Shown: in pieces, positions 1 to 13,380 of the stretch
Layout: each line of letters opens with the position of its first letter
How positions within the stretch are numbered: the stretch's first letter is position 1
Virus record (IMG/VR): IMGVR_UViG_3300045988_163776
Coordinates: 128,001-155,695 of that record
DNA from: a virus
Strand: one strand, 5' to 3'
Length of the DNA: 27,695 nt
Translations under genes and position numbers: made by a program
Notes under the pieces: generated by a model
Told to the model about the DNA's origin: nothing
The model's input: only the letters and a program-made list of their open reading frames with translations
Database searches by the model: none

Positions 1-146
1 CAATGTTGTATTTTGCTATGAAGAAATAATTAGCAAGCTTGGTGAAGCTGGATATCGCATGGGTTGGGATTTTACTGATAAAGCCATTGATAATGGAACT
101 TGGTTTTTGTCAATCCATTGGGACTAATATAAAGGAGGGTTGCGCA

Positions 147-857
147 ATGGCAGTAGCAAAAAGCTTTAAAAATTTTGAAATGTTAAGTGAACCATTTGAG
201 AAAAATAATAAGATGTATGTTATTGTGCGAAACCCTAAAACCCAACATGAACGTACCGTAAGATGGTATACAAGTAAAGAGTATGCTAAGCTCTATCCAG
301 AAGAACAACCAATCACACAAGATTGGAAAAATTTAAAGAATTGTCTTGGTTTTAATAAAGGATATATTACAATATTTAAAAATGCAAGTTATGATGATGA
401 ATGGTGTAATATATCAAATGCGCGTTGGCATGAACGTTGGGGCTGGTATATTGCTTCTACAGAAGAAGTACCCGCAGACTGTCCTTTTGAATATGCTCCC
501 TTGTATTGGACTGATATCTCAAAAAGCGAAGGAGCGTTAAAACCAAAAGAGGAGATTGAACAAATTATTTTTTCAATATTTTATGATAATTCTCCATCTC
601 AATATTTAGGTAATATAGGAGATAGAATTGAGCTGGAAGCTGAAATTATAAGTATTGAGAAAGTAGAAACTGCATATGGGGTAAAAGCAAAATATACTCT
701 TTGTGATGAGAAAGGAAATATGCTAGAATGGTTTACTGGAGTAAGAAAAGACTGGTTTAGAGGTAATAAGAAGAATCTTCGAGGCACAGTAAAAGAATTA
801 AAAAGGAAATATGGAATTAACACAACAGTTTTAACAAGATGTTTAGAAAGGAGATGA
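147..857 (+). CDS. hypothetical protein (early block)
   Basis: Track ORF 39-857. Preferred start is ATG 147, preceded by aggagg at 133-138 (8-nt spacing). TGA stop. No in-frame TAG. Confidence 0.6.
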   Translation: MAVAKSFKNFEMLSEPFEKNNKMYVIVRNPKTQHERTVRWYTSKEYAKLYPEEQPITQDWKNLKNCLGFNKGYITIFKNASYDDEWCNISNARWHERWGWYIASTEEVPADCPFEYAPLYWTDISKSEGALKPKEEIEQIIFSIFYDNSPSQYLGNIGDRIELEAEIISIEKVETAYGVKAKYTLCDEKGNMLEWFTGVRKDWFRGNKKNLRGTVKELKRKYGINTTVLTRCLERR

Positions 858-863
858 GGTAAT

Positions 864-1022
864 GTGATCGAAATAATTACATTTATAATTTGGATAATCA
901 TAGGCGTATCAAATTTTTTCTTTTGTCTTGCTGGCTTAGCGCCAACTTGGATAACATTTTGGAGCGCTTATGGTTGCGTAATTATTAGTTTACTCGAAAA
1001 ATATATTAATAATAAAAAATAA
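864..1022 (+). CDS. small hydrophobic (2-TM-like) membrane peptide, about 52 aa
   Basis: GTG start 864 after ggagatgagg. Translation VIEIITFIIWIIIGVSNFFFCLAGLAPTWITFWSAYGCVIISLLEKYINNKK is strongly hydrophobic. TAA at 1020-1022. Confidence 0.35.
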   Translation: MIEIITFIIWIIIGVSNFFFCLAGLAPTWITFWSAYGCVIISLLEKYINNKK

Positions 1023-1051
1023 TTGATATTTTATAAAAAATATTATATAAT
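1023..1051 (+). promoter_or_regulatory. sigma70-like promoter, TTGATA-N17-TATAAT
   Basis: -35 ttgata 1023-1028 and -10 tataat 1046-1051 with an exact 17-bp spacer; member of the repeated promoter family. Confidence 0.5.
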
Positions 1052-1091
1052 ATATATATAATAAAAGAAGTTGAAAAGAGGTTGATTTAAA

Positions 1092-2735
1092 ATGTCATTG
1101 ATGAATATGATTAGTAAAGAGGAACAAGAGTTAATTTCAGCTTATAGAGAAGCTTATATAGGAAGTCATACAGAATCACTTTGTGATAATGAATATCTAT
1201 TAAGAGTATGGCAAGAAGAAAAATCTAAATTCCTTGCTAAAATTTTTAAAGATAGCCTAATTCTTAAAAAAGAAGTTGTAGTTAAGTTACCACATGAAAT
1301 GATCGCCGTAGAAATGGATGGAAAATTATGTTATTATCCTCGTAGAGATGGTTATGTGGATCCTGGAACTCCAAAAGGCTTTATAAGACAGCTAATGAAC
1401 TTAGTCGATGAATTATGTGAAAAAGATTGTATTGATTGGGCTTTAAGAAATGCCATGCGTAACATAAATGGAGATCTTTTAGCAGACAATAGATTTATTG
1501 ATAGATGGGATCCAGATCATAAAAGAAATTTTAAAGTGACTCATCCTTCAGATAAAAGAAAAAGTTTCACTATTTCTTATGGAATGAAATTAATGAAAGT
1601 ATATAATAAATTTGCTACTGCTTTTGGCATTGCAGGTTTTGATGAATATGCAGTCGTTCATTCTCAAATTTTAAATACGACTAATCTTAAAGGAACGCTA
1701 TGCTTGTCAATACATCCTTTAGATTATATGACAATGAGTGATAACAACTCAAATTGGACTTCTTGTATGTCTTGGGAAGGTGACGGCGAGTATAGACAAG
1801 GCACTGTAGAAATGATGAACTCTGATTGTATTGTTGTAGGTTACCTTGAGTCTTCAGCTCCTATGAATATATTAGGAGCAAAATGGAATAACAAAAAATA
1901 TCGTAGTTTATACTGCGTTAATGAAGATGTTATAGCCAATATAAAAGGTTACCCTTATAAAAGCTTAGAGATTGATAAAATAGTTATTGATTGGCTAAAA
2001 GAATTAGTTGAAGCCAATACAGATATCAAATATGAGAGTGATATTATAGATTTTAATAGTGACGAAAATGATTATTATTTAGATTTTCATACTCATATTA
2101 TGTATAATGACTGCTGGAATACAAAAGGCTGTAGAACATGTCATATAGGCTATGTAAGCAATTTAGCATCACATAATTGTTATGTTCATTATTCTGGACC
2201 TGATGAATGCATGTGTTGTGGAGCAGTTGGAGTTATGGAAGAGTGCAGTGAAAGTGATTTGGTTTGCGATTCCTGTGATGGCTATGAGTATTGCGATCAT
2301 TGTGGAGATAGATGCAACTTTGGTGAAACTCATCATATTGATGGATATTCTCTTTGCAGTTACTGCTATGATGAAGCTGTTGCGCAAGACTTCTTTGATG
2401 AAACAGAGCATTTAGAAAATAATATGGTACAAGCAAAAATTAATGTTGACGCTGAAAGCGGAATGTTCATTCGCTCACATTCTGTTTATAGTATTTTTAT
2501 TGATATAAAAAATATAGAAAAATTTATCTCTGTATGCCCTAAAATTTTTAAAGAAGAAAAAATGTCTTCTTATAAGATCTTTTCTGAAGAAAGTTTTTAT
2601 TATGAAGGGAAAATAATAGAGATTAACTGGAATGACCTTTCTGATTATGGTTGGAAATTTTTCTTTAAAGAAAATGATGCGATGATTGAATCAGTTAAAT
2701 TATTCTGTAAACGTTATGAAGAAGCTAAAATTTGA
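1092..2735 (+). CDS. large Cys-rich zinc-ribbon protein, paralog of the 5291-6667 product
   Basis: Intact 547-aa ORF. Shares the core LS[IV]HPLD[YF]..S.N..W.SC...GEYR.G with ORF 5291-6667. The C-terminus carries multiple CxxC pairs (CRTCH..CMCCG..CDSCDGYEYCDHCGDRC). Confidence 0.75.
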   Translation: MSLMNMISKEEQELISAYREAYIGSHTESLCDNEYLLRVWQEEKSKFLAKIFKDSLILKKEVVVKLPHEMIAVEMDGKLCYYPRRDGYVDPGTPKGFIRQLMNLVDELCEKDCIDWALRNAMRNINGDLLADNRFIDRWDPDHKRNFKVTHPSDKRKSFTISYGMKLMKVYNKFATAFGIAGFDEYAVVHSQILNTTNLKGTLCLSIHPLDYMTMSDNNSNWTSCMSWEGDGEYRQGTVEMMNSDCIVVGYLESSAPMNILGAKWNNKKYRSLYCVNEDVIANIKGYPYKSLEIDKIVIDWLKELVEANTDIKYESDIIDFNSDENDYYLDFHTHIMYNDCWNTKGCRTCHIGYVSNLASHNCYVHYSGPDECMCCGAVGVMEECSESDLVCDSCDGYEYCDHCGDRCNFGETHHIDGYSLCSYCYDEAVAQDFFDETEHLENNMVQAKINVDAESGMFIRSHSVYSIFIDIKNIEKFISVCPKIFKEEKMSSYKIFSEESFYYEGKIIEINWNDLSDYGWKFFFKENDAMIESVKLFCKRYEEAKI

Positions 2736-2760
2736 AAAAGTTAAAAAAATAATGTATAAT
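2732..2760 (+). promoter_or_regulatory. sigma70-like promoter, TTGAAA-N17-TATAAT
   Basis: ttgaaa 2732-2737 overlaps the TGA stop of the upstream gene. tataat 2755-2760 after a 17-bp spacer. Confidence 0.55.
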
Positions 2761-2792
2761 AATTATAGAAAATAAATAATAAAGAAGAAAGG

Positions 2793-3224
2793 ATGTTGAA
2801 AAACATGACTGAGAAGACAAAAAAGATAACAAAGAGAGACATTTATGAAGCAATTGCGCAGGCAATGGAAACTGGTGAAAGCACCATTGAGCCACAAGAA
2901 ATCATTAATTTCTGTCACAAGGAAATTGCAGCCCTTGACCGCAAAGCTGAAAAAGCAAGAGAAAATGCAGCGAAAAAACGTGAAGAGGGAGATGCTCTAC
3001 TAGAGCTTGTAAGAAATGCTCTTACAGACGAATATTCAATTATCGCTGATATTACGGCTCGTATTGAAAGTGATGAAGTCGAAGTAACAGTAGCCAAGGT
3101 TCAGTATAGACTTAATCAGCTAATCCAAATGGGTGAAGCTGAAAAGTCAGACGTTTCAGTCGGAGAAACTGGTTCAAAAAGAACTCTTAAAGGCTATCGA
3201 AAAATAGCAACTATTGAAGACTAA
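2793..3224 (+). CDS. hypothetical protein, 143 aa
   Basis: Intact ORF with aagaaagga RBS and TAA stop, directly followed by a strong terminator. Confidence 0.6.
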   Translation: MLKNMTEKTKKITKRDIYEAIAQAMETGESTIEPQEIINFCHKEIAALDRKAEKARENAAKKREEGDALLELVRNALTDEYSIIADITARIESDEVEVTVAKVQYRLNQLIQMGEAEKSDVSVGETGSKRTLKGYRKIATIED

Positions 3225-3236
3225 TTATTGTTTAAA

Positions 3237-3274
3237 AAGGAGTAGAAATTTTATCTACTCCTTTTTTTTCTTTT
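3237..3274 (+). terminator. rho-independent terminator
   Basis: Perfect hairpin ggagtagaaatt ttatctactcc followed by T8. Confidence 0.8.
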
Positions 3275-3389
3275 ATCTGCTCCGGCCGGATACGCACATA
3301 AACACCGCAAATCCAAAGAAAAATGGATTTAGAAAATTTTTGACAAAATTCTTAATTTATGGTATTATAAAAATGAAGGAGTGATAATA

Positions 3390-4193
3390 ATGAAATATTC
3401 ATTACCAAATAGAATATCATTACAATATTTAAAGCAAGCAGATGAAATAAAAATACAAAAATCTGATTGCGAGAAAACAATAGATTATATAGAAGATTAT
3501 CCAGAAGCAGAAATAGTATTATGTATAGAAGATCTAAAACAACAATTTTCAGGAAATGAAGAGGTCATTACGAATACATTGAAAATGTATAAAGAAGAAA
3601 GTAATAAAAAATTTAGTATAGAGCTAGAGCATTTAAATGAAGATGTTGCGTTATTAAAAAAATTGGAAATTCCTTTCTTCTGGAAATATCCAGTGACTAC
3701 TTTTGATGAATTGCAAGCTTTAAAGGAATTAGGAGTTTCACAAGTATTAATAGATGGTCCTCTCTTTTTTCAGATGAGAGAAGTAAAGAGATTTCATATT
3801 CCAATTAGAGTAATTCCAAATGTATGTTACGAGAACTATCTTCCAAGAGCAAATGGTTTGCATGGAACTTGGATGCGCCCGCAAGATCAAGATTTATATG
3901 ACCAATATGTTTCTATTTTAGAATTTAAAGAAAAAGATTTCACCAAATTAGAAGCCTTATTTGACATATATTCTAAAGATAAAACATATTTTGGAGATTT
4001 GAATACATTATTTACAAATTTTGGTTTTACTATTCCTATACTTGCGGCAGCAGTACCTCGAGATGTCATTAAGTCTAGATTAAACTGTGGTCAACGCTGT
4101 ACACAGAATCGTTGTCACTTATGTGAGCGAGGATTGTCTGTTGGTTTACAAGTGCAGACAAGTGAGTATATTAGAGTAAAAGAGCAAAATTGA
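3390..4193 (+). CDS. hypothetical protein with a C-terminal Cys cluster
   Basis: ATG 3390 after aaggag. The track begins at GTG 3381. C-terminus CGQRCTQNRCHLCERG. TGA stop. Confidence 0.6.
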   Translation: MKYSLPNRISLQYLKQADEIKIQKSDCEKTIDYIEDYPEAEIVLCIEDLKQQFSGNEEVITNTLKMYKEESNKKFSIELEHLNEDVALLKKLEIPFFWKYPVTTFDELQALKELGVSQVLIDGPLFFQMREVKRFHIPIRVIPNVCYENYLPRANGLHGTWMRPQDQDLYDQYVSILEFKEKDFTKLEALFDIYSKDKTYFGDLNTLFTNFGFTIPILAAAVPRDVIKSRLNCGQRCTQNRCHLCERGLSVGLQVQTSEYIRVKEQN

Positions 4194-4218
4194 TTTTTTA
4201 TTAAAAATATTATATAAT
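4190..4218 (+). promoter_or_regulatory. sigma70-like promoter, TTGATT-N17-TATAAT
   Basis: ttgatt 4190-4195 and tataat 4213-4218. Confidence 0.5.
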
Positions 4219-4269
4219 TATTATAGAAAAAAATGAAAAAAATAATTATATAAGGGGTGTTTATAGATA

Positions 4270-5294
4270 TGCTTACTTTTTCAGAACAGCAATTTAAAAC
4301 TTTTAAGCAAATTGCCCAGTTAAAACAATCTGGTTTGAAAAAGGTTTTAGTGTCTTTCTTAAGAAAACATTATAGCCAAAACCGAGTTTTTTACTCTGAG
4401 CATTATATTTATGCTATTGGAGATATTCCTATTGCATTAGTGGCGCATTTAGACACTGTTCATAAAAAAATTCCAAGTCAAATATTTTGGGACAGAGAAG
4501 AAGATGTGGTTTGGAGTCCCCAAGGGTTAGGGGCAGATGATAGGGCTGGAGTATATGCTATTATGCAGATTATTTCTTCTGGACTACGACCTCACATTAT
4601 TTTTACGACAGATGAAGAAATTGGTGGAATAGGAGCTATTTTATTATCTAAACGAACAAATCCTTTTGCAGATTTACGTTATATGATAGAGCTTGACCGC
4701 AGAGGTTTTACAGATTGTGTTTTTTATGATTGTAATAATAAAGATTTTGAAAAATATATAGAATCTTTTGGATTTGAGACAGATTGGGGCACCTATTCAG
4801 ATATCTGCGAATTAAGTCCAAGCTGGAAAATTGCAGGTGTAAATTTATCCATAGGATATTTTAATGAGCATTCTTTCGCAGAGTATTTAGAACCTAATAT
4901 ATTAATGAATACTATAAAAAAAGTTAAAGAGATGTTAAAAACACCTAAAGAAGATATTCCTGTGTTTAAATATATTCCTTATAAATCTTCTAAACCGGGT
5001 TTTGTTTACGACACAGATGAAAATTATAAAAAATTAGCTTTAGCTTATGGATATAATTTTTATGATGATGAGATAGGAATAATTTGTTCAGGTTGCCATG
5101 AAGCATTTTTTGAAGATGAAGTATTCCCAGTAAAAAGTGTTGATGGAACTACGAAATATTATTGTCCAGATTGTGTTACAGATAATATAGAATGGTGCAT
5201 TAGGTGTAATGAGCCTTTTGAAAAAGAAAATCCAGAAGATACTAATATATTATGCAAAGATTGTAGAAAAATTAAGGAGGCTTCTTCTAAATGA
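4270..5294 (+). CDS. M42/M20-like zinc metallopeptidase-domain protein with a C-terminal zinc ribbon
   Basis: Motifs HLDTVH, GADDRAG and TTDEEIGG resemble the metal-binding signatures of M42/M20/M28 aminopeptidases. C-terminal CSGCH..CPDC..CIRC..CKDC. Start ATG 4270 after aagggg, with GTG 4257 as an alternative. Confidence 0.6.
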
Positions 5295-6667
5295 GTTGTT
5301 TATTTACAATAGCAAAACAATTTGAACAGGTAATTGATTATTCTCAAGGATTTAAACCGGCACAATCAAAACAAGTTATAAAACAATGGTTTAAAGCTAA
5401 AAAACCTTTCATAAAAAAATTAGGTGGTTTTATATATGAATATCCAGAAACTATAACAACAGATTTATCAGATGCAGAAAAAAGAATGAAAATTAGTGAT
5501 TTTACTGACTGGGTAGAAAGAAAATATGGCTTATATGATTTATCTAATTTTATTACAGCAAATGAAAAAACTTTTTTTGAAAATGCAGTAGCAGAAGAAT
5601 ATAAATATAAAGGTATTATTATACCAAAAGGAATGAAATTATTAAAAGCTTTTAAATATTTTGAAGAGAATAAAGATATTTTAAACGATATTCAAAATGT
5701 GGCAAGTATGTCTATACAAGAAAATAAAATTTCTGGAAAACTATGTTTATCAGTGCATCCACTAGACTTTTTATCCAGTAGCGAGAATACTCTTAATTGG
5801 CGGTCTTGTCATGCCCTTGACGGAGAATATCGCGCGGGGAATTTAAGCTATATGCTTGATGGGAGTACAATAATTTGTTATTTAAAGACAGATGAAGAAG
5901 TAAAGCTTCCACGTTTCCCCTCAAGCGTACCTTGGAACAATAAAAAATGGCGTTGTTTATTATTCTTTTCAGAAAATAATAAAATGATGTTTGCGGGACG
6001 CCCTTATCCATTCGCTGCAAATGGACTTTTAAATAAAATAAGAGATATAGTTCAAGAATTAAAATTGATTGAAGTATTAAATCAACCTTATTGGAGAAAA
6101 CAATACCTTAGCGAATGGCGAAATGATTATGTTGATACTTTTAATTTTTCAGATGGGACACAAGTTAAATTAGAGAGTAGGTTTATTTTAGATTGTTATA
6201 GTGAACTAGTACGTCTGGAAGAAATAATAACAAATGGACAAGGAAGTTGTCATTATAACGATTTGCTATATTCTTCTTGTTATGTGCCTTATTATGTTCA
6301 AGTAGAGTCTGGAGATCATGTCCCAAAGTATAAAAACTATTTTAAAATTGGAGCTAGAACTTTATGCCTTAATTGCGGGAAGTATGAAATATCAGACCCA
6401 GATTCAATGCTATGTGAAGACTGTCTTGATTATTATGATTCAGAAGATTGCTTAGATGAAACATTCTGTTCTGAATGCGGAGCAATAGTTGAAGAGGGTG
6501 AAGGAGAGTTTGCTGCAACAGGGGAGTTTTTATGCCCTCATTGTATAGAAGAATATACCCAAAGATGCTATAAATGTAATGCACGATATTATCAAAATGA
6601 TATGTCTGTTGTTCGAGATGAAGATAATACTCATGTACATTGGATTTGTGCAAATTGTAAGGAATAG
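5291..6667 (+). CDS. large Cys-rich zinc-ribbon protein, paralog of the 1092-2735 product
   Basis: aaggagg RBS. Shares the LSVHPLDF...W.SC..GEYR.G core with the paralog. C-terminal CLNCG..CEDC..CSECG..CPHC..CYKCN. Ends with TAG 6665-6667. Confidence 0.75.
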   Translation: MSCLFTIAKQFEQVIDYSQGFKPAQSKQVIKQWFKAKKPFIKKLGGFIYEYPETITTDLSDAEKRMKISDFTDWVERKYGLYDLSNFITANEKTFFENAVAEEYKYKGIIIPKGMKLLKAFKYFEENKDILNDIQNVASMSIQENKISGKLCLSVHPLDFLSSSENTLNWRSCHALDGEYRAGNLSYMLDGSTIICYLKTDEEVKLPRFPSSVPWNNKKWRCLLFFSENNKMMFAGRPYPFAANGLLNKIRDIVQELKLIEVLNQPYWRKQYLSEWRNDYVDTFNFSDGTQVKLESRFILDCYSELVRLEEIITNGQGSCHYNDLLYSSCYVPYYVQVESGDHVPKYKNYFKIGARTLCLNCGKYEISDPDSMLCEDCLDYYDSEDCLDETFCSECGAIVEEGEGEFAATGEFLCPHCIEEYTQRCYKCNARYYQNDMSVVRDEDNTHVHWICANCKE

Positions 6668-6689
6668 GAAGAAGAGGAGGAAGAATATT

Positions 6690-7001
6690 ATGGCGGCTAA
6701 AGGAACAGAAGCGAAAAATTTAGTTATTTCAAAAATTAAAGAAGCCTTTGGAGAAGATTATATTTTAACAGAAGGCAGTAAAGTCTATGTGTGGGCAGAA
6801 GATGGAGCTAATGGTAGAGTGCAAATAGCTATGACTTTAACTTGCCCAAAAGTAATGGTTGGCGAATGTGCATCAGTTGCAGTAGTTGGCAATCAGTTGG
6901 ATTTTGAAGCAGAATTGCCGCATGCACAAGTGGACTCTGCGCAAATAACTGAACAGGAAAAAAATAATATTGAAGAACTCATGAAACGTTTGAATCTATA
7001 A
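6690..7001 (+). CDS. hypothetical protein, 103 aa
   Basis: ATG 6690 after gaggaggaag. The track ORF starts upstream at 6579, but the RBS supports 6690. Confidence 0.55.
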   Translation: MAAKGTEAKNLVISKIKEAFGEDYILTEGSKVYVWAEDGANGRVQIAMTLTCPKVMVGECASVAVVGNQLDFEAELPHAQVDSAQITEQEKNNIEELMKRLNL

Positions 7002-7308: not shown

Positions 7309-7381
7309 CATCTTATGGTGCAAAAGGATAGCACACTGTTGTACAGCAGAGATAAAGGTTCGAATCCTTGAAAGATGATCT
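7309..7381 (+). tRNA. tRNA-like element, atypical (anticodon arm not resolvable)
   Basis: Canonical T-arm aaagg-ttcgaat-ccttg and D-arm gtgc/gcac. Acceptor catctta/aaagatg has one mismatch. The anticodon region ctgttgtacagcag does not fold into a 5-bp/7-nt arm. Confidence 0.3.
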
Positions 7382-7855
7382 ATTTAGTAAAATGGTTTAT
7401 AATTTAAGTTTTCCGGAAAAACTTAGTACAATCATTGGATTTATATTATGAGTTCGAGTCTCATTAGCTTGCTACAGTAAAGGACGAATATAAAAACTTA
7501 AAATGTATTAGAGGTCAGCTCTGTGGTGAGAGTGAGTACTAAGATACAGGAGATTGGAAGTAAGCAATACACACCACTGAGCTTACTTTTGAGAGATATG
7601 AGATAGAACCTCCTCGTGGTTTCTCTCGGGCAATGCCTTAATAACTTTTGTTTATAGTTAATATGGTAGCAAATCTATCTTTACCCCTTTCCTTATAATA
7701 CTTAAAAAAAAGACAGTATCAGCAAATGAAATGCGTTAAATTAGGGATTTAAAGTGCTTTTATAAAACTGTCTTGTAATATGGTTCTATGGTTTAAGAAA
7801 TTAAAGTACTGTTTTATCATAGTAGAGCTTAAATCTCATAGAACCACCATTATAT

Positions 7856-7928
7856 AGTGATGTAGTTCAGTTGGCAGAACACCTCTCTAATACGGAGGAA
7901 GTCATAGGTTCAAACCCTATTATCACTA
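7856..7928 (+). tRNA. tRNA with apparent anticodon AAU (Ile-like); near-duplicate of the Lys(UUU) tRNA at 14843
   Basis: Acceptor agtgatg/tatcact, D-arm gttc-agttggca-gaac, anticodon stem cctct/ggagg, loop ctAATac, T-arm atagg-ttcaaac-cctat. Confidence 0.55.
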
Positions 7929-8406
7929 TCTTGTGTCGTCGTCAGCGACTATAAATAACTGTGCAGGTTCCCGTGCGATAGCGGATGTGCAAGCTAATCC
8001 ACAAACATACTATCGCCTATATTCCTCTATAGCTCAGCTGGAGGAGCCAAATACATTGAATTGAGGGTATTAGTCCTCAATTCAATGTTCTAAAGGGATA
8101 GAGAATTTGACTTTTAATTAAGTTCTCTAGGTTCGAATTTTTATATCGACTTTTGCAATAAATCATTCGAGAGGAAGTGCGACTCGACATTACAGAGAAA
8201 TCTCAAACGTGATAAAAACGGCGTCTAAAGTCATGACAACAAACGCCATCTATAATGTGACGGATGGTATAAAGGTTGATTTGCTGTAAAAGTTGATATA
8301 GAGATTCTATTAGTTATTTATAAATTCTATTATGAAAAATACTAGTTCACCTTATATAAAATTTAAAGATTATAAGGCTTGAACAAAATAATTTTATATT
8401 TTATAT

Positions 8407-8482
8407 AGCAGGCGGTAGGTGAAGTCATCTTTTCAGCCTCATAAGCTGAAGTAACCGGGAGCATTACCCGGGCCTGTTCCCA
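8407..8482 (+). tRNA. tRNA-like gene with CAU anticodon (Met/Ile2-like), non-canonical D-arm and T-loop, CCA encoded
   Basis: Acceptor agcaggc/gcctgtt (one G-U pair), anticodon arm tcagc-ctCATaa-gctga, T-arm ccggg-agcatta-cccgg, discriminator c then cca. Confidence 0.4.
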
Positions 8483-8522
8483 TTAAACGTTCATTACTTA
8501 GAAGAAAGGGGAAGTGACAAAT

Positions 8523-9014
8523 ATGGCTAAAGAAATTGAAAGAAAATTTTTATTATCTCATCTTCCAAAAATCAAGGCGGATGAAATGTGGTATGTGGAA
8601 CAAGCATATATCTCAGTAGAGCCAGAAGTGAGAATACGAAACAAAAAACCTATGACAGGTTACTTCCCTGGGTCTTATTATAACAAATATTTAATGACAA
8701 TTAAAAGCGATGGTTCTTTAATAAGAGATGAAATTGAAACCCCTATTTATGAAAATTTTTATAATGAAACTATTGGTTTTATAAATAAAGAGCCAATTAA
8801 AAAGGAATACTTTGTTTATAATATAGATAATTTGCAATTGGAAGTATCAATAGTTGATAAAGAAACAGACTATAGTTTTATTTATGCAGAGGTTGAGTTT
8901 CAATCAGAAGAAGAAGCTAAAGCTTTTAAATTTCCTTTTCCAGAAATTCTTATTGAGGAAATTACTTATCAATCAGATTATAAAATGAAAAATTATTGGC
9001 TTAATAGCCGATAA
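8523..9014 (+). CDS. CYTH-domain (triphosphate tunnel metalloenzyme/CyaB-like) protein
   Basis: N-terminal EIERKFLL matches the CYTH signature (ExExK). RBS aagggg upstream of ATG 8523. TAA stop. Confidence 0.6.
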   Translation: MAKEIERKFLLSHLPKIKADEMWYVEQAYISVEPEVRIRNKKPMTGYFPGSYYNKYLMTIKSDGSLIRDEIETPIYENFYNETIGFINKEPIKKEYFVYNIDNLQLEVSIVDKETDYSFIYAEVEFQSEEEAKAFKFPFPEILIEEITYQSDYKMKNYWLNSR

Positions 9015-9035
9015 TTTTAAATCAAATATTTATAT

Positions 9036-9064
9036 TTGAAAAATTAAAAAAAATATTATATAAT
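9036..9064 (+). promoter_or_regulatory. sigma70-like promoter, TTGAAA-N17-TATAAT
   Basis: ttgaaa 9036-9041 and tataat 9059-9064. Confidence 0.55.
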
Positions 9065-9140
9065 ATATATGTAATAAAAAAGAAAGGAGTTATTGATTTT
9101 GAAAGTTAAAGTAAAAAATTCAGACATTACAAAAATAAAA

Positions 9141-9254
9141 ATGACTCCTGAAGAGCTTCAATTTTGGATTCATATACGAAAAAAGAGTGGAGCTATGAGA
9201 AAGAAAAAAGGAAAAGGCTCTTATAATCGTAAAGATAAGTATAAGAGTTTTTAA
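9141..9254 (+). CDS. small Lys-rich basic peptide (about 38 aa, or 52 aa from TTG 9099)
   Basis: aaaggag at 9084-9090 lies upstream of an in-frame TTG at 9099 and ATG 9141. TAA at 9252-9254. Confidence 0.3.
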   Translation: MTPEELQFWIHIRKKSGAMRKKKGKGSYNRKDKYKSF

Positions 9255-9387
9255 TAAGATAAGCCGATGCAATATTTTACCATCAACAAATTACAGCCAA
9301 AAGCAATTGTCGTACTGTTTAATTGGAAAAGCAAAAATTCCAGTGAGTAACAAATGTGCGGCTAGTCAACCTAAGACTATTCTATAT

Positions 9388-9463
9388 GACGGTATCTTCT
9401 AACAGGTCAGGAAACCAGCCCTTCAAGCTGGAAATCTGGGTTCGAGCCCCAGTACCGTTACCA
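9388..9463 (+). tRNA. tRNA-Glu(UUC)-like, CCA encoded
   Basis: Acceptor gacggta/taccgtt, D-arm ttct/ggaa, anticodon arm ccagc-ccTTCaa-gctgg (C at position 33), T-arm ctggg-ttcgagc-cccag, then a cca. Confidence 0.5.
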
Positions 9464-9491
9464 TTAAAATATAAAAAGGAGCTGATTAATT

Positions 9492-10130
9492 TTGGCATAC
9501 ATTTATAAAATTATAAATGATATAAATTAGAAAATTTATATCGGAAAAACAGAATTTTCAATAGAAAAAAGGTTTAAAGAGCATTGTAAAGATGCTTTTA
9601 AAAAAAGAAATGAAAAAAGACCATTGTATTCTGCTATGAATAAATATGGTGTTGAACATTTTCATATTGAACTAATTGAAGAAACAGATATACCAGAAGA
9701 AAGAGAAATTTATTGGATTGAAAAATATCGTTCTTTTAAAAATGGTTATAATGCTACTTTGGGTGGAGATGGTAAAAAATATATTGATTATGATTTAGTT
9801 ATCTCTACTTATAAAGAACTATTAAGCATTACTGGAACTGCGAAAAAGATTGGTATATCAGAAGATAGTGTAAGCAATATTGTTCATAATCAAAAAGATA
9901 TAACTATATTAAGTGCATCTGAAGTAAATATACTGAAAAATGGGCATATAATTAATCAATATAATAAAAATACAAAAGAATTTATACAATCTTTTCCATC
10001 TATAAAAGCGGCTGCTAGAGCTGTTACAAATAAAGAAAAGATAGGTGGTGAAGCATCTCATATTATGGATGTTTGTAAAGGAAAAAGAAAAAGTGCTTAT
10101 GGTTATTATTGGCAATTTGCAGATAAATAA
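9492..10130 (+). CDS. GIY-YIG family homing endonuclease; one in-frame TAG at 9528
   Basis: From TTG 9492 (aaggag 10 nt upstream) the frame reads AYIYKIINDIN*KIYIGKTEFSIEKRFKEH..., i.e. GIY...YIG plus the catalytic R/E/H spacing, contiguous with track ORF 9624-10130. Sits between two tRNA genes. Confidence 0.6.
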
Positions 10131-10295
10131 GTTACCTCCATTCCGTTCATAGGGATGATAAGATACAAATCTCGATAGAGGAACAAATGCTCTTTAGTAT
10201 GCGTGGTTACACAGACCTTAATGTGTTTAAATATAGAGTAATTATTGCTGTAAGATATTTTATTGTAAGGCGTGTAAATAATTACTCTTTTATAT

Positions 10296-10370
10296 GGCTC
10301 CATCGTCTAAAAGTAAGGACATCAGTCTCTCAAACTGGAAATGGGATAGCATAATTCTCTGGAGTCACCA
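10296..10370 (+). tRNA. tRNA-Glu(CUC)-like with non-canonical T-loop, CCA encoded
   Basis: Acceptor ggctcca/tggagtc, D-arm gtct/ggac, anticodon arm tcagt-ctCTCaa-actgg, T-arm gggat-agcataa-ttctc (weak), then a cca. Confidence 0.4.
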
Positions 10371-10374
10371 GTAT

Positions 10375-10451
10375 CAAGTAAATTAATTAATTAATGTATC
10401 TCTTATGTATTGTTTGGCATTGATTAAATTTAATATTAATTAATTTACTTG
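10375..10451. repeat. 17-bp perfect inverted repeat flanking a 42-bp spacer
   Basis: caagtaaattaattaat ... attaattaatttacttg. Confidence 0.6.
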
Positions 10452-10811
10452 ATTTTATATAAAGAGCAAATGATATGCGCGGCGACCGGTGACCTAAGCT
10501 GGAATTGTATTGGGGCATGGTGTTGTTGCAAAACGTGTAAGTTTAAGCTTCATCACTAGCTTCATAAGCTAACATAGAAAATTAAAAGTTTTACACTTGT
10601 TATTGAAGTTGTTGCACTTTTAAGCTATAATGTTAGCATAATAAAAAAATGGAATTAAATCATTTTCTTATTGGTGGTTTAGTTCCCTCCGCCAATATAT
10701 TATGATGTGTGTTTAAGGGGGAGAAGTAGAAAATAAGTGGAAATCAGGGGCGGGAATTGATGTGACACCCCTGACGACTAACAAGTGGAGGTTTGAGTTA
10801 GTTACTTATAT

Positions 10812-10896
10812 GCAGGTATGGCGGAACTGGCAGACGCATGGGACTTAAAATCCCAGGAGTAAAATCGTGTGGGTTCGAATCCCACTACCTGTACCA
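10812..10896 (+). tRNA. tRNA-Leu(UAA), class II, CCA encoded
   Basis: Acceptor gcaggta/tacctgt, anticodon arm tggga-ctTAAaa-tccca, 13-nt variable arm, T-arm gtggg-ttcgaat-cccac, then a cca. Confidence 0.75.
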
Positions 10897-11036
10897 GAGT
10901 CCAAGTGTGAGAAAGTTCTGAAGCAATGCTGGACTTTAATCAGGCAAATTAAGTAAAAGTGCATGAGTAACTTAAAATGCAAGCATCTCGTAGTTCAGTA
11001 GATAGAGAATCTAAAAGAGTATCTACATTTTAATAT

Positions 11037-11109
11037 TGCGGAGTGATGTAATGGTAGTATTTTAGCTTGATTAAGTTAAAGATTAGTAGTTCAAATTTAC
11101 TCTCCGCAT
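11037..11109 (+). tRNA. tRNA with an 8-nt anticodon loop (ttgattaa); identity unresolved
   Basis: Perfect acceptor tgcggag/ctccgca, U8, D-arm atgt-aatggta-gtat, anticodon stem ttagc/gttaa enclosing 8 nt, variable agatt, canonical T-arm agtag-ttcaaat-ttact. Confidence 0.45.
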
Positions 11110-11117
11110 TAAAGAAT

Positions 11118-11191
11118 GCAGATATAATTTAATGGTAAAATTCCAGCCTTCCAAGCTGGTCTTGTGGGTTCGATTCCCATTATCTGCTCCA
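11118..11191 (+). tRNA. tRNA-Gly(UCC), CCA encoded
   Basis: Acceptor gcagata/tatctgc, D-arm attt-aatggta-aaat, anticodon arm ccagc-ctTCCaa-gctgg, T-arm gtggg-ttcgatt-cccat, then t cca. Confidence 0.75.
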
Positions 11192-11199
11192 GTAAATTT

Positions 11200-11275
11200 T
11201 GGGGTATGGTGCAACCGGTTAGCACACTGGACTTTGACTCCAGCAATCTAGGTTCAAGTCCTAGTACCCCAGCCA
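11200..11275 (+). tRNA. tRNA-Gln(UUG), CCA encoded
   Basis: tggggta...taccccag cca with U1:A72, G2:C71, G3:C70, G73 (classical Gln identity set). Anticodon arm ctgga-ctTTGac-tccag, T-arm ctagg-ttcaagt-cctag. Confidence 0.8.
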
Positions 11276-11308
11276 TTGAAAAATAAGAAGTAAGAAAGGG
11301 GTAATTAA

Positions 11309-12400
11309 ATGAATATTATATGTTCTGGTTCTAGATATCAAGTGTATGATACAGAAGATATAAAGACTTATTCTAAACTTCCAGTAGGGACATATGAAGT
11401 ATGTTTTAATCAAAATATTGGTTTTTATCTAACTGCTCATACTGCATTAGAAGTTAAAGAAGAAAAAATTTACGGCTCTACTTTAAACAGAATAGATAAG
11501 ATATTATCATCTTTTGGAAAAAGTGAACGTAACTTTGGTGTTATTTTAAGTGGAAATAAGGGAAGTGGTAAGTCTTTATTTGCAAGAGAATTAAGTAAAA
11601 AATGTCTTGAAAAAGAAATGCCTGTTATTATTGTTAATATAGCAGTTCCAGGAGTAGCTTCTTTTCTTGCTTCAATTAAACAAGAGGTAATGATTTTATT
11701 TGATGAGTTTGAAAAAACTTTTTCTTTTGAAAATGATTGCGGAGAAAAATCTGAACTTCCGCAAGAAGAATTGTTATCTTTATTTGATGGTTTGGATAGT
11801 GGTAAAAAATTATTCATAATTACCTGCAATGATACTTATAGGTTAAGCGATTATTTACTTAATCGTCCGGGCAGATTTCATTATCATTTTAAACTTGGTG
11901 TAGTTACACCGGAAGATATGAGAGAATATATGTCTGATAAATTGTTACCAAAATATCATTATAATATTGAAAAATTAATTAATGTAAGTAATTTTGTTGA
12001 TATGACTTATGATTTATTAAGAGCAATTGTTTTTGATCTTAATCAAGGATATGAATTAGAAGAAACATTATCTGATTTAAATGTTGACAATAAAGATTCT
12101 ATATCAATTGAAGCAACTTTAACCCTTGAAAATGGTTCCGTGTATAAAGCATTAAATTCACATTTATATTTTCAAAACCGTGATTGTTTACAACTCTTTG
12201 ATAGAAATCATGTGGGAGTAAATATAATTTATTACGCTAAAGATTTAAGTTTCAATGGCAATGAAGTTGTTTTAAAAAAATATACATTATCTTTTGATGA
12301 CCAAGCACCAGAAAGTGATAAGCAATCAGAGGTTAAAGAATTAACTATTAAAATAAAAAATGAGTATTCATTTAATTTTATGAATAGTTTTACAGTATAA
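11309..12400 (+). CDS. AAA+/P-loop ATPase
   Basis: Walker A GNKGSGKS, Walker B MILFDEFEK, sensor-1-like IITCND. Intact 363-aa ORF with aaagggg RBS and TAA stop. Confidence 0.7.
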   Translation: MNIICSGSRYQVYDTEDIKTYSKLPVGTYEVCFNQNIGFYLTAHTALEVKEEKIYGSTLNRIDKILSSFGKSERNFGVILSGNKGSGKSLFARELSKKCLEKEMPVIIVNIAVPGVASFLASIKQEVMILFDEFEKTFSFENDCGEKSELPQEELLSLFDGLDSGKKLFIITCNDTYRLSDYLLNRPGRFHYHFKLGVVTPEDMREYMSDKLLPKYHYNIEKLINVSNFVDMTYDLLRAIVFDLNQGYELEETLSDLNVDNKDSISIEATLTLENGSVYKALNSHLYFQNRDCLQLFDRNHVGVNIIYYAKDLSFNGNEVVLKKYTLSFDDQAPESDKQSEVKELTIKIKNEYSFNFMNSFTV

Positions 12401-12402
12401 AT

Positions 12403-12425
12403 GCGGTCCGGTTGTATAAACCGGA
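12403..12425 (+). terminator. hairpin terminator-like element
   Basis: tccggtt-gtat-aaaccgga immediately after the ATPase stop. Confidence 0.4.
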
Positions 12426-12434
12426 TCAAAATAT

Positions 12435-12508
12435 CTGGGTATGGGAAAGTTTGGTAATCCGCCTGATTTGGGATCAGGAGACCGCAGGTTCAAATCCTGC
12501 TACTCAGA
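12435..12508 (+). tRNA. tRNA-Pro(UGG)
   Basis: Acceptor ctgggta/tactcag, anticodon arm cctga-ttTGGga-tcagg, T-arm gcagg-ttcaaat-cctgc. Confidence 0.75.
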
Positions 12509-12718
12509 GGCTTTAGAAAGATAATACCTTCACGTGGTTAAAGCTGTTTTTACTAAAATTATCTTAATAGGTAGCTCGACAGTACCTCCAAGCTAGCATA
12601 AGGGTATTAGAAAAAAGCTGTCCGTTTATGAAAAGAGTTTGTCGAGAAAACTCTTAGTGTAGTACACATTGGGCGGGAATTTTCCCCCGTTTGCGTTTAA
12701 AAGAAAGGGGTAAATAAT

Positions 12719-12937
12719 ATGTTATATGGGACAAGAAATAGCAATAACTATAATAATGAAACCCTCAATTTCTTAGATATTATAAGTATTGCTTCTTTTA
12801 TTTTGCAACTATAGAATAGAGAAAGCAATATGATTGCGGAAATACAAAATCAATTATCTGAAAAAATAGATAAACAAATTAATGTAAAACTTGATAAAAT
12901 TTTAAAAGATTTAGAAGACATAAAAAGTAAAATATAA
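12719..12937 (+). CDS. small protein (72 aa) with one in-frame TAG
   Basis: aaagggg RBS. MLYGTRNSNNYNNETLNFLDIISIASFILQL*NREAI...KSKI, TAA at 12935-12937. Becomes an ORF only if TAG is sense. Confidence 0.4.
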
Positions 12938-12940
12938 TAT

Positions 12941-13014
12941 GGGAGTTTAGTGTAATGGTAGCATGCTTGGCTCCAACCCAAGTGGTTAGGGTTCGAATCT
13001 TTAAATTCCTGCCA
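12941..13014 (+). tRNA. tRNA-Trp(CCA), CCA encoded
   Basis: Acceptor gggagtt/aattcct (two G-U pairs), D-arm gtgt-aatggta-gcat, anticodon arm cttgg-ctCCAac-ccaag, T-arm taggg-ttcgaat-cttta, then g cca. Confidence 0.65.
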
Positions 13015-13023
13015 ATAATTTTA

Positions 13024-13052
13024 ATTGATTTTTTAATAAAAATATAATATAA
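13024..13052 (+). promoter_or_regulatory. sigma70-like promoter, TTGATT-N17-TATAAT
   Basis: ttgatt 13024-13029 and tataat 13047-13052. Confidence 0.45.
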
Positions 13053-13082
13053 TATATGTAAAAGACAATAACAGCAATAAGT

Positions 13083-13155
13083 TCGAGAGTAGCTCAGATG
13101 GTTAGAGTGTTATAGTAAAATATAAAGGTCTGCAGTTCAAATCTGCACTTTTGGA
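13083..13155 (+). tRNA. tRNA-like gene with an atypical 6-nt anticodon loop
   Basis: D-arm gctc-agatggtta-gagt, stem ttata/tataa around gtaaaa, canonical T-arm tgcag-ttcaaat-ctgca. Acceptor tcgagag/cttttgg needs three G-U pairs. Confidence 0.3.
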
Positions 13156-13190
13156 GAAAACAACGTTGTCTTGTACATATGGTGTTATTG

Positions 13191-13265
13191 GTGTAATAGT
13201 AGCATAACGCACTGTGACTGCGTAGGCGAGAGGGCAGAACTCTCATTTCACCCCACTAAAAAAGA
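13191..13265 (+). tRNA. tRNA-His(GUG) with G-1, CCA encoded
   Basis: G-1 pairs with C73. D-arm gtgt-aatagta-gcat, anticodon arm acgca-ctGTGac-tgcgt, T-arm gagag-ggcagaa-ctctc (non-canonical loop). Acceptor has two U-U mismatches. Ends c cca. Confidence 0.5.
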
Positions 13266-13282
13266 CGATTACAGCAATTCAT

Positions 13283-13360
13283 TACCATTTAGCTTAATGG
13301 GAAAGAGCGTTAGAGTTTTAATCTAAAGGAGCGGTTCGAATCCGCATATTTAAATCGTCT
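13283..13360 (+). tRNA. tRNA-like element (UUU anticodon arm plus canonical T-arm); acceptor ends unresolved
   Basis: D-arm gctt-aatgggaaa-gagc, anticodon arm ttaga-gtTTTaa-tctaa, T-arm gcgg-ttcgaat-ccgc. The only complementary acceptor-like strands (agacgat 13273-13279 and atcgtct 13364-13370) lie outside with spacers. Confidence 0.3.
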
Positions 13361-13380
13361 TGTGAGTTAAAAAATCTTTA

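What the first reader, a model, noticed from the sequence alone, without database searches (positions are those of the whole stretch)
1092..6667. Early block dominated by zinc-ribbon-tailed proteins, including two large paralogs
Products of 1092-2735 and 5291-6667 share a roughly 100-aa core (LS[IV]HPLD[YF]...NW.SC...GEYR.G....[IV]..YL...........WNNKK[YW]R.L). Both end in arrays of CxxC pairs. Independently, 3390-4193 and the M42/M20-like 4270-5294 also end in CxxC...CxxC ribbons. Such repeated small zinc ribbons on otherwise unrelated early proteins suggest a shared targeting function (nucleic acid or a common host partner), plausibly host takeover or anti-defence.
Basis: seen in the sequence. 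Interest (0 to 1): 0.5.

Follow-up and report, generated by a model that had tools for sequence, protein, structure and literature searches.

The report
Conserved phage module of zinc-ribbon enzymes
The two large look-alike proteins belong to a very large, unnamed family from gut phages and mobile elements, are always partnered with an apparently active metallopeptidase that carries the same acidic zinc-ribbon tail, and their function is still unknown.

Summary
Products of 1092-2735 (A) and 5291-6667 (B) are paralogues (BLASTP E 3e-22). The CxxC pairs are conserved zinc-ribbon cysteines in hundreds of relatives.

Corrections:
- A's two ribbons are internal, not terminal.
- 3390-4193 ends in a conserved C-x3-C-x4-C-x2-C cluster, not a ribbon.
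- The peptidase starts at 4269, not 4270.

The block is one conserved module, 39-7001: OB-like protein, A, winged-helix protein, 4-Cys protein, peptidase, B, small protein. It is syntenic in about 100 phage contigs of 140-200 kb.

A family member next to the peptidase also occurs in Enterococcus phages. It also occurs in an integrated element of Vescimonas, beside AcrIIA9-family and PcfJ-domain genes.

The peptidase keeps all clan-MH metal ligands. B's and the peptidase's double ribbons are homologous (hhalign 95.7%). The ribbons are strongly acidic, which argues against nucleic-acid binding.

My best guess, held weakly, is a protein-directed transferase/hydrolase pair used for host takeover or anti-defence.

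The parts
39..857 (+). First gene of the module ('up272'). The probable true start is the ATG at 147. The C-terminal part looks OB-like by eye. Function unknown.
   Evidence: ORF. PHROG families of unknown function (phrog_2319, E 5e-17). An orthologue precedes A in many relatives, and the matches begin at about residue 30-39.
1023..1051 (+). Sigma-70-like promoter candidate (TTGATA-17-TATAAT) in front of A.
   Evidence: 11 of 12 match in the gap before A. This is a consensus match only.
1092..2735 (+). Paralogue A (547 aa): N-terminal region, shared core, two internal zinc ribbons, then a C-terminal domain of about 120 aa.
   Evidence: (1,404 homologues, none with a Pfam domain).
1554..2126 (+). 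Shared core of A (about residues 155-345), with the SIHPLDY..NW.SC..G.YR.G..WNNKKYR motifs and the MYND block.
   Evidence: Invariant residues include S206, P209, D211, W222, S224, C225, G232, K268, R271, Y287, P288.
2208..2366 (+). The two conserved zinc ribbons of A (C373/C376..C392/C395 and C401/C404..C422/C425). The region is strongly acidic.
   Evidence: Seven of the 8 cysteines are invariant and C392 is at least 90% conserved in 43 sequences. Residues 366-430 have net charge -14 and pI 4.05.
2732..2760 (+). Sigma-70-like promoter candidate in front of the 143-aa gene.
   Evidence: 11 of 12 match.
2793..3224 (+). 143-aa protein, probably a winged-helix DNA-binding protein.
   Evidence: Syntenic in relatives. 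A profile of 19 orthologues gives weak hits to HTH-type regulators (7fby, PH0140; E 0.002) over residues 56-117.
3234..3266 (+). Intrinsic-terminator-like hairpin (13-bp stem followed by a T run) after the 143-aa gene.
3340..3368 (+). Sigma-70-like promoter candidate (TTGACA-17-TATTAT with an upstream TG) in front of the 4-Cys gene.
3390..4193 (+). 267-aa protein of unknown fold with an invariant C-terminal four-cysteine cluster.
   Evidence: No Pfam or PDB match for the profile.
4086..4124 (+). C233-x3-C237-x4-C242-x2-C245 metal-site candidate of the 267-aa protein. It is not a zinc ribbon.
   Evidence: Invariant in 21 aligned sequences. The pattern C-x3-C-x4..7-C-x2-C was found in 21 of 22 orthologue sequences; the exception is a 131-aa fragment.
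4269..5294 (+). Clan-MH (M20/M28/M42-like) metallopeptidase homologue (341 aa) with a C-terminal double zinc ribbon. Its stop overlaps the start of B (ATGA).
   Evidence: phrog_34186 E 6e-58 and phrog_4191 'peptidase' E 8e-32. Sub-threshold Pfam hits to M28, M42 and M20. H60, D62, D90, E116, E117, D143 and H201 are invariant in 20 sequences.
5085..5264 (+). Double zinc ribbon of the peptidase (CxxC at residues 273, 299, 310 and 329 of the 341-aa protein).
   Evidence: Homologous to ribbons 2-3 of B.
5291..6667 (+). Paralogue B (458 aa): helical N-terminal domain, shared core, three C-terminal zinc ribbons.
   Evidence: 2,135 homologues, none with a Pfam domain. AlphaFold2 model with mean pLDDT 89.
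5603..6325 (+). Shared core of B (about residues 105-345). The predicted alpha/beta domain resembles the GNAT fold. The invariant loop 171-179 (RSCHALDGE) is modelled with low confidence.
6365..6658 (+). The three zinc ribbons of B (C359/C362..C375/C378, C393/C396..C415/C418, C426/C429..C453/C456). The tail is acidic.
   Evidence: Cysteines invariant or at least 90% conserved. Residues 346-458 have net charge -14 and pI 4.4.
6690..7001 (+). Last gene of the module (103 aa). It starts at the ATG at 6690, which follows a GAGGAGG ribosome-binding site, not at 6579.
   Evidence: Orthologue matches begin at residue 37-40 of the long ORF. Sequence. No PDB match.

Best explanation
SHOWN
- 1092-6667 is the centre of a conserved seven-gene phage module at 39-7001.
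- A and B are paralogous members of a very large, unnamed family of mobile-element proteins.
- Their shared core is a compact alpha/beta domain with a small set of invariant residues: P-x-D, W-x-[ST]-C, G-x-Y-R-x-G and K-K-[WY]-R.
- The family is fixed next to a clan-MH metallopeptidase homologue that keeps all its metal ligands.
- B and the peptidase carry the same acidic double zinc ribbon.

SHOWN ONLY AT FOLD LEVEL
- The core resembles the N-terminal half of the GNAT acyltransferase fold.

INFERRED
- A and B are transferase-like enzymes, or an enzyme plus a degenerate partner, that act together with the peptidase on a protein or small amine-bearing target soon after the element enters the cell.
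- The acidic ribbons dock the enzymes onto each other or onto a common basic partner, not onto DNA or RNA.
- The purpose is host takeover or anti-defence.
For: - Paralogy.
- Family size and lack of annotation: 2,135 and 1,404 homologues without Pfam domains. The core profile hits 3,988 clusters at 50% identity. The PHROG families are of unknown function.
- Synteny: the order A, 143-aa, 267-aa, peptidase, B, 103-aa is seen in about 20 phage contigs binned into MAGs. Of 80 IMG/VR loci on contigs of mostly 80-200 kb, 60 show all six genes in order and most of the rest look like best-match artefacts or a missing 143-aa match. The same order is seen in L002.
- Family member beside peptidase in other elements: Enterococcus phages EF1, EF5 and H1. 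In Vescimonas fastidiosa pMM35_02 the pair lies in a gene run that ends at an integrase and excisionase (family member hhalign 98.5%; peptidase 40% identity, E 2e-50; context).
- Peptidase ligands are invariant.
- The ribbon module is shared and acidic.
- Timing and context: near-consensus sigma-70-like sites in or at the edges of the gaps between ORFs. The module heads the nucleotide-metabolism and replication block of phage H1. AcrIIA9-family and PcfJ-domain genes lie nearby in two independent sequences.
- Precedents for phage GNAT enzymes that modify host RNA polymerase or DNA: PMC7824862.
Against: - There is no sequence match to any GNAT model or any PDB chain.
- The loop that binds CoA pyrophosphate in GNATs (Q/R-x-x-G-x-G/A) is replaced by AGR-x-YPF in B and KGYPY in A. 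No long helix is predicted where GNAT helix alpha-4 would lie.
- H156 is not conserved in two of the three Enterococcus phage paralogues, so a Cys-His mechanism is uncertain.
- No activity, partner or expression data exist.
- The anti-defence link rests on neighbours in one sub-lineage only.
- In-frame TAGs in 4-Cys-gene orthologues mean that not every module gene can be made before the suppressor tRNA is present.
Confidence: 0.3

Rival explanations
1. The module acts on tRNA or other RNA. A and B would be tRNA-modifying enzymes or aminoacyl-tRNA-dependent transferases (like Fem, ATE1 or L/F-transferase, which also have GNAT-like folds) that serve the phage's own tRNA set. The peptidase would trim the amino-acid or peptide product.
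For: - tRNA arrays start on the same strand just downstream of the module: in the window (16 tRNAs, 7380-16974), in L002, in 16 of 21 further metagenomic loci scanned and in 62 of 76 IMG/VR loci (median distance 2 kb).
- A Thg1 tRNA-repair enzyme lies upstream in L010. An RNA ligase and a TROVE/Ro-like protein lie directly upstream in L030 and L033.
Against: - The tRNA adjacency is inherited synteny within one clade, not repeated independent association.
- The Enterococcus phages show no tRNA within 66 kb of the module, and none is seen by the Vescimonas copy.
- The ribbons are strongly acidic, which is unlike RNA-binding ribbons.
- TROVE and RNA ligase occur in one sub-lineage only.
Confidence: 0.2
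2. A and B are not enzymes. They are binding or scaffold proteins, for example inhibitors of a basic host protein, and the acidic ribbons are the working part. The conserved core residues are structural or bind a metal.
For: - Acidic ribbon arrays are shared by three module proteins.
- The most conserved loop is modelled with low confidence, as expected for a site that needs a ligand or partner.
- The CoA-loop motif is absent.
- One Enterococcus phage paralogue has replaced the ribbons with an acidic Asp/Glu-rich tail.
Against: - Cys, Asp, Trp, Tyr, Arg and Lys residues stay invariant across very divergent members. This is more typical of an active or ligand-binding site.
- The family is fixed beside a peptidase whose catalytic residues are all intact, which points to chemistry.
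Confidence: 0.2
3. A and B modify the phage's own DNA bases, as the GNAT-superfamily Mom enzyme of phage Mu does, to evade restriction.
For: - GNAT-like fold.
- Mom-type and other GNAT-superfamily DNA-modification systems are reported in large phages (PMC7824862).
- The module sits with nucleotide-metabolism and replication genes in phage H1.
Against: - No sequence similarity to any Pfam family, so none to a Mom model if Pfam holds one.
- Acidic ribbons are poorly suited to DNA binding.
- A peptidase partner has no role in known base-modification pathways (my knowledge).
- The family also sits in an integrated element on a bacterial replicon.
Confidence: 0.07
4. Nothing specific. The ribbons are generic stabilising knuckles that are common in proteins of this phage clade, and the clustering has no functional meaning.
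For: - Small Cys-rich ORFs occur elsewhere in the window, for example 13171-13326, 13932-14129 and the recoded 15039-16001.
- Some peptidase orthologues have one ribbon or none.
- One Enterococcus phage paralogue has none.
Against: - The same double-ribbon module sits on B and the peptidase.
- Its cysteines are invariant or nearly so over hundreds of relatives.
- It is consistently acidic.
- Outside the module, no window ORF of 50 aa or more has more than two CxxC pairs.
Confidence: 0.1

Closest known systems
GNAT (GCN5-related N-acetyltransferase) superfamily, including the phage enzymes Rac (phiKMV) and Mom (Mu)
   Different: - No sequence-profile match.
- The CoA pyrophosphate loop motif is absent, and there is no clear alpha-4 helix.
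- The invariant residues lie in a loop between the first two helices and include a cysteine.
- The domain is flanked by a helical N-terminal domain and 2-3 acidic zinc ribbons.
- The full-length model did not retrieve GNATs.
Aminoacyl-tRNA-dependent transferases with GNAT-like folds (FemA/FemX, ATE1, L/F-transferase type)
   Different: They score lower than plain acetyltransferases. There is no sequence similarity and no tandem GNAT domain in one chain. The tRNA link is positional only.
Clan MH co-catalytic zinc peptidases and deacylases (MEROPS M20, M28, M42)
   Same: The product of 4269-5294 keeps H-x-D, D, E-E, D and H in the expected order, invariant in 20 orthologues. It gives weak Pfam and NCBIfam hits to M28, M42, M20 and PepT and a strong hit to PHROG 'peptidase' families.
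   Different: All Pfam scores are below the curated cut-offs (19.3 versus 21.3 bits for M28). It carries a C-terminal double zinc ribbon. It is fixed next to, and translationally coupled with, a member of the A/B family.
Double zinc ribbon domains (Pfam DZR, DZR_2)
   Same: Tandem CxxC..CxxC knuckle pairs. B gives weak hits to DZR_2 (E 0.011) and DZR (E 0.16).
   Different: The hits are below threshold. The ribbons here are strongly acidic and form a module shared by an enzyme and its partner.
PcfJ-domain proteins of conjugative elements
   Same: PcfJ-domain genes are encoded beside family members in Vescimonas pMM35_02 and in contig MT840058. Both are proteins of mobile elements with unknown function and, from my memory of the family, a conserved Cys motif.
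   Different: hhalign finds no relation (probability 0.1%), and Pfam PcfJ does not match A or B.

Membership tests
GNAT superfamily | The characteristic mixed alpha/beta fold (b1-a1-a2-b2-b3-b4-a3-b5-a4-b6). | tested here: inconclusive
GNAT superfamily | The pyrophosphate-binding loop Q/R-x-x-G-x-G/A between b4 and a3 (motif A; established knowledge). | tested here: not met
   The loop reads F-A-G-R-x-Y-P-F in the B family and [IV]-K-G-Y-P-Y in the A family. There is no Gly at +3 or Gly/Ala at +5.
GNAT superfamily | Match to a curated GNAT sequence model. | tested here: not met
   No Pfam or NCBIfam acetyltransferase hit for A, B or 31 core sequences, even at E 10 or below.
GNAT superfamily | Acyl-CoA binding and acyl transfer. 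| not testable with these tools
   This needs biochemistry.
Zinc ribbon | Two CxxC knuckles on beta hairpins, with conserved cysteines. | tested here: met
   B has three pairs and A has two, all invariant or at least 90% conserved. The peptidase has two pairs. Short strands are predicted around each knuckle.
Zinc ribbon | Zinc is actually bound. | not testable with these tools
   This needs metal analysis.
Zinc ribbon (for 3390-4193) | Two separated CxxC knuckles. | tested here: not met
   There is only a compact C-x3-C-x4-C-x2-C cluster.
Clan MH metallopeptidases (M20/M28/M42) | The five metal ligands and the catalytic Glu in the order H-x-D, D, E-E, D/E, H (established knowledge, MEROPS). 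| tested here: met
   H60, D62, D90, E116, E117, D143 and H201 are invariant in 20 sequences. The assignment to ligand roles is by motif order, not by structure.
Clan MH metallopeptidases (M20/M28/M42) | Score above the curated family cut-off. | tested here: inconclusive
   Pfam M28 scores 19.3 bits against a cut-off of 21.3, and M42 and M20 score lower. PHROG 4191 'peptidase' matches at E 8e-32.
Aminoacyl-tRNA-dependent transferases (Fem/ATE1 type) | GNAT-like fold used with an aminoacyl-tRNA donor. | not testable with these tools
PcfJ domain | Profile similarity to the PcfJ domain. | tested here: not met
   hhalign probability 0.1%. No Pfam PcfJ hit.
Known anti-phage defence proteins (PADLOC) | Match to a PADLOC model. 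| tested here: not met
   No hit for A, B, the 4-Cys protein or the peptidase.

The most novel reading that the evidence does not exclude
The A/B family plus its clan-MH peptidase would be a previously unrecognised two-enzyme system of phages and integrative elements of gut Firmicutes. In it, a cysteine-dependent, GNAT-like transferase without a CoA loop works with a deacylase or peptidase. Both are held together or aimed at a basic host target by a shared acidic double zinc ribbon. The system would disable a host defence or takeover target on entry.
Probability: 0.2. Interest if true: 0.75.

Novelty: new variant of a known kind. Interest (0 to 1): 0.55.

Why it matters
- About 4,000 protein clusters (at 50% identity) share this core, yet the family has no name, no Pfam model and no solved relative.
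- The family marks a widespread clade of 140-200 kb gut phages that recode the TAG stop codon.
- It also occurs in cultivable Enterococcus phages and in an integrated element of a cultured gut Clostridium relative, so experiments are possible.
- A family gene is found fixed next to an apparently intact metallopeptidase in all three settings, and in the gut-phage clade B and the peptidase carry the same acidic zinc-ribbon module. This gives a concrete, testable picture of a new enzyme pair in mobile elements.
- If the pair turns out to act on host defence or on tRNA, it would add a new type of phage takeover tool.
- If it is merely structural, it remains a useful marker family.

Tried and rejected
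- Sequence libraries for A, B and their neighbours (Pfam, NCBIfam, PADLOC): nothing for the core and only sub-threshold zinc-finger hits. PHROGs gave only unknown-function families.
- PDB by sequence profile. The full B family gave only zinc-finger noise. The core gave chance hits to coronavirus spike domains. The 4-Cys protein gave noise to designed TIM barrels. The 103-aa protein gave nothing.
- The whole-library profile search listed only close relatives, so the distant tail of the 3,988 hits could not be inspected.
- A homologue search with the 335-aa Enterococcus phage paralogue returned only 25 unannotated proteins.
- PcfJ as a remote relative: rejected by hhalign.
- Ideas considered from motifs and dropped for lack of support:
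  - Ligase or capping-enzyme motifs (K-x-DG, DGE, K-x-K). The D and E of 'DGE' are not conserved in family A.
  - An ADP-ribosyltransferase H-Y-E triad, a Cys-His-Asp protease triad, and AEP primase motifs. None is supported by the fold search.
- Literature searches for Enterococcus phages EF1, H1 and VRE9 found nothing useful.
- NAD-salvage genes upstream in L002 looked interesting, but only L002 (with its duplicate L003) and L025 have them.

Full report
1. WHAT IS IN THE SEQUENCE

All long ORFs in the left 7 kb lie on the + strand:
- 39-857
- 1092-2735 (A, 547 aa)
- 2793-3224 (143 aa)
- 3381/3390-4193 (267 aa)
- 4257/4269-5294 (peptidase, 341 aa from the ATG)
- 5291-6667 (B, 458 aa)
- 6579/6690-7001

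A and B are clearly paralogous: BLASTP E 3e-22, 27% identity over 345 columns, with the quoted motif present. The similarity starts at about A155/B105. It continues through a second shared block ([FY]ND) into the ribbons, so the common part is well over 100 aa.

2. THE CYSTEINES

CxxC pairs are concentrated in these proteins and exceed what shuffling gives for A, B and the peptidase, but not for the 267-aa protein.

- In 50 B-family sequences all twelve ribbon cysteines are invariant or at least 90% conserved. That makes three ribbons at the C-terminus.
- In 43 A-family sequences, seven of eight ribbon cysteines are invariant and C392 is at least 90% conserved. That makes two ribbons, and they are followed by a further domain of about 120 aa. 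A therefore does not end in ribbons.
- Thirteen of 19 peptidase orthologues carry at least four CxxC pairs in the tail (a double ribbon). The others carry fewer or none.
- The 267-aa protein has an invariant compact cluster, C-x3-C-x4..7-C-x2-C. It is a plausible metal site but not a ribbon.

A profile-profile comparison shows that ribbons 2-3 of B and the peptidase's double ribbon are the same module: hhalign probability 95.7%, E 9.6e-9, all eight cysteines in register. Cysteine patterns can inflate such scores, so I treat this as good but not absolute evidence.

The ribbon regions are strongly acidic. Median net charge is -15 per 100 residues in the B family and -18 in the A family, and it is negative in 118 of 120 and 119 of 119 proteins. 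This speaks against the usual nucleic-acid-binding role and for protein contacts.

3. A CONSERVED MODULE, NOT A LOOSE CLUSTER

The order (39-857 homologue), A, 143-aa, 267-aa, peptidase, B, 103-aa recurs as follows:
- in about 20 phage contigs that had been binned into bacterial MAGs, at 30-60% identity;
- in L002, a 157-kb contig;
- in 80 IMG/VR viral loci on contigs of mostly 80-200 kb. Sixty show the six genes A to 103-aa in order. Most of the rest look like best-match artefacts (A and B cross-matching where a flank is cut) or lack a detectable 143-aa match.

Variants lack B (L026, L027) or lack both the peptidase and B (L031).

The peptidase stop overlaps the B start (ATGA, from the coordinates). 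The 103-aa gene starts at 6690 behind a GAGGAGG site.

Five 11-of-12 sigma-70-like sites all lie on the + strand, at 1023, 2732, 3340, 7101 and 7250. Comparing them with the ORF coordinates, they fall in or at the edges of the gaps between ORFs; 2732-2760 overlaps the last bases of A. A strong terminator-like hairpin follows the 143-aa gene. These are consensus matches only, but they fit transcription by host polymerase.

4. THE FAMILY OUTSIDE THIS CLADE

Enterococcus phages EF1, EF5, H1 and VRE9_1 to VRE9_4 each show three separate matches to B. In EF5 these are three paralogues of 623, 399 and 335 aa lying around an orthologue of the peptidase; H1 has the same gene layout. In H1 they are genes 1-7, at the head of the nucleotide-metabolism and replication block.

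Across these distant members only P-x-D, W-x-[ST]-C, G-x-Y-x-x-G and K-[IV]-[WY]-R persist. H156 is lost in two of the three, and one paralogue has no ribbon at all.

A family member also sits on plasmid pMM35_02 of the cultured gut bacterium Vescimonas fastidiosa. It is 421 aa with three ribbons (hhalign 98.5%, E 1.8e-15). Twelve bases downstream lies a ribbon-less orthologue of the peptidase (40% identity, E 2e-50). The pair lies at the end of a gene run that begins next to an integrase and excisionase. The run carries genes annotated as lambda-exonuclease family, RecD-like helicase, YodL-domain, AcrIIA9-family Cas9 inhibitor, PcfJ-domain and LigA.

The order AcrIIA9, PcfJ, small gene, family member is repeated in an unrelated faecal phage contig at 34-66% identity.

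A family gene next to the peptidase is therefore the conserved unit. It lives in phages and in at least one integrative element.

5. WHAT THE CORE IS

No Pfam, NCBIfam or PADLOC model matches the core, and the PHROG families it matches have no known function. No PDB sequence matches it.

The family is nevertheless very large: 2,135 and 1,404 homologues, and 3,988 clusters at 50% identity for the core profile. In the GTDB genome collection all 30 hits are MAG contigs, several of 150-176 kb; I read these as mis-binned phages.

AlphaFold2 gives a confident model of B (pLDDT 89). It has a helical N-terminal domain, an alpha/beta core, a beta-rich region and then the ribbons. The invariant loop 171-179 is the only low-confidence stretch.

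I read this as a real but partial resemblance to the N-terminal half of the GNAT fold. Two defining features fail. The CoA pyrophosphate loop motif is absent, and no curated GNAT model matches. I therefore do not file the family as a GNAT. I say only that it has a GNAT-like core.

6. THE PARTNERS

- Peptidase. H-x-D, D, E-E, D and H are invariant in 20 sequences. This is the ligand set of clan MH (M20/M28/M42; established knowledge), so it is probably active. Pfam scores are just below threshold, while PHROG 'peptidase' families match strongly.
- 143-aa protein. Its profile gives weak hits to HTH regulators (E 0.002).
- 267-aa and 103-aa proteins. No detectable relatives of known function.

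7. SURROUNDINGS

tRNA arrays begin on the same strand just downstream of the module:
- in the window (16 genes);
- in L002;
- in 16 of 21 further metagenomic loci scanned;
- in 62 of 76 IMG/VR loci.

The Enterococcus phages show no tRNA within 66 kb of the module.

Upstream neighbours vary:
- Thg1 in L010, a phosphoesterase in L012 and FolD in L014;
- RNA ligase plus a TROVE protein in L030 and L033;
- NAD-salvage genes in L002 and L025.

This gives some colour to an RNA-related reading. It is mostly inherited synteny, however.

8. HOW IT MOST LIKELY WORKS

Shown: paralogy, conservation, shared acidic ribbon module, intact peptidase ligands, fixed pairing, mobile-element distribution.

Shown at fold level only: a GNAT-like core.

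Inferred: A and B act as transferase-like proteins together with the peptidase on a protein or small amine-bearing target soon after entry. The acidic ribbons dock the partners together or onto a basic host protein. The purpose is host takeover or anti-defence.

GNAT-type transferases and M20-type deacylases make and break the same kind of amide bond (established knowledge). That makes such a pair chemically sensible, but I have no direct evidence. I give this about 0.3.

The main rivals are an RNA/tRNA-directed function (0.2), a non-enzymatic binder or scaffold (0.2), generic ribbons with no shared meaning (0.1) and Mom-like DNA modification (0.07).

9. NOVELTY AND VERDICT

It is an unnamed, very large mobile-element family with a divergent GNAT-like core, fused to acidic zinc ribbons and locked to a metallopeptidase. 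I rate it a new variant of a known kind, with interest 0.55. The function is open, and cultivable Enterococcus phages offer a direct experimental route.

Noticed in passing
window 16887-16974, 15039-16001, 18449-20881, 23312-24241 and 26356-27525: The phage reads TAG as a sense codon in its right-hand genes. A tRNA with anticodon CUA lies at 16887-16974. Reading TAG as sense fuses ORFs into proteins of 320, 810, 309 and 389 aa with 10, 9, 5 and 2 in-frame TAGs. The 309-aa protein then gives Peptidase_C1 plus an SLH domain across its TAGs. In the window, the module genes 39-7001 have no in-frame TAG.
   Followed up: partly
L002, L005, L006, L009, L011, L013, L015, L031 (orthologues of window 3390-4193): Orthologues of the 4-Cys gene carry one or two in-frame TAGs in 9 loci (8 distinct, because L003 duplicates L002). 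Most lie in the first 65 codons, at positions where other orthologues have Q, K or E. This gene may therefore be made only once the suppressor tRNA is present. B orthologues in L007, L008 and L012 also show one TAG within the matched stretch; its position was not examined.
   Followed up: partly
window 7380-16974: An array of 16 tRNA genes by ARAGORN (Rfam adds a few weaker ones) is interspersed with small ORFs. It includes tRNA-Ile(UAU), tRNA-Ile(AAU) and two odd tRNAs with a 4-base or a 2-base anticodon call (11037-11109, 13082-13156).
   Followed up: no
window 9624-10130 and 15039-16001: A NUMOD1-domain ORF, likely a homing endonuclease, sits inside the tRNA array. A recoded 320-aa ORF with three repeats of a W-H-C-K-C-D-C-G cysteine motif lies between tRNA genes and has no Pfam match.
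   Followed up: no
window 11309-12400: An AAA-family ATPase gene is embedded in the tRNA array. It is conserved at the same place in relatives L002 and L005 (52-56% identity).
   Followed up: no
window 24509-25759: A 416-aa radical SAM protein lies among the recoded genes (Pfam Radical_SAM, E 5e-15).
   Followed up: no
L030 3470-7150 and L033 3678-7155; L010 450-1280: In two divergent relatives an RNA ligase (PF09414) and a TROVE/Ro60-like protein lie directly upstream of the A-like gene. A weak tRNA-like hit precedes the TROVE gene in L033 (5529-5589). Another relative has a Thg1-family enzyme upstream.
   Followed up: partly
L033 10579-10907 and L030 14707-14786: Rfam reports tmRNA matches above the gathering score inside the phage tRNA regions of two relatives. 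The L030 match is only 80 nt long and may be a tRNA-like fragment.
   Followed up: no
L002 743-4779: A relative carries a run of NAD-related genes just upstream of the module: an isochorismatase/nicotinamidase-like gene, a phosphoribosyltransferase-like gene, NAMPT and NAD synthase. The first two are also seen in L025.
   Followed up: partly
L012 16112-16404 versus window 16887-16974 and L002 16111-16199: The CUA-anticodon tRNAs differ in type between relatives. They are 88-89 nt with a long variable arm in the window and L002, but 75-76 nt in L012 and L019, and L012 has two copies. The amino acid inserted at TAG may therefore differ between lineages.
   Followed up: no
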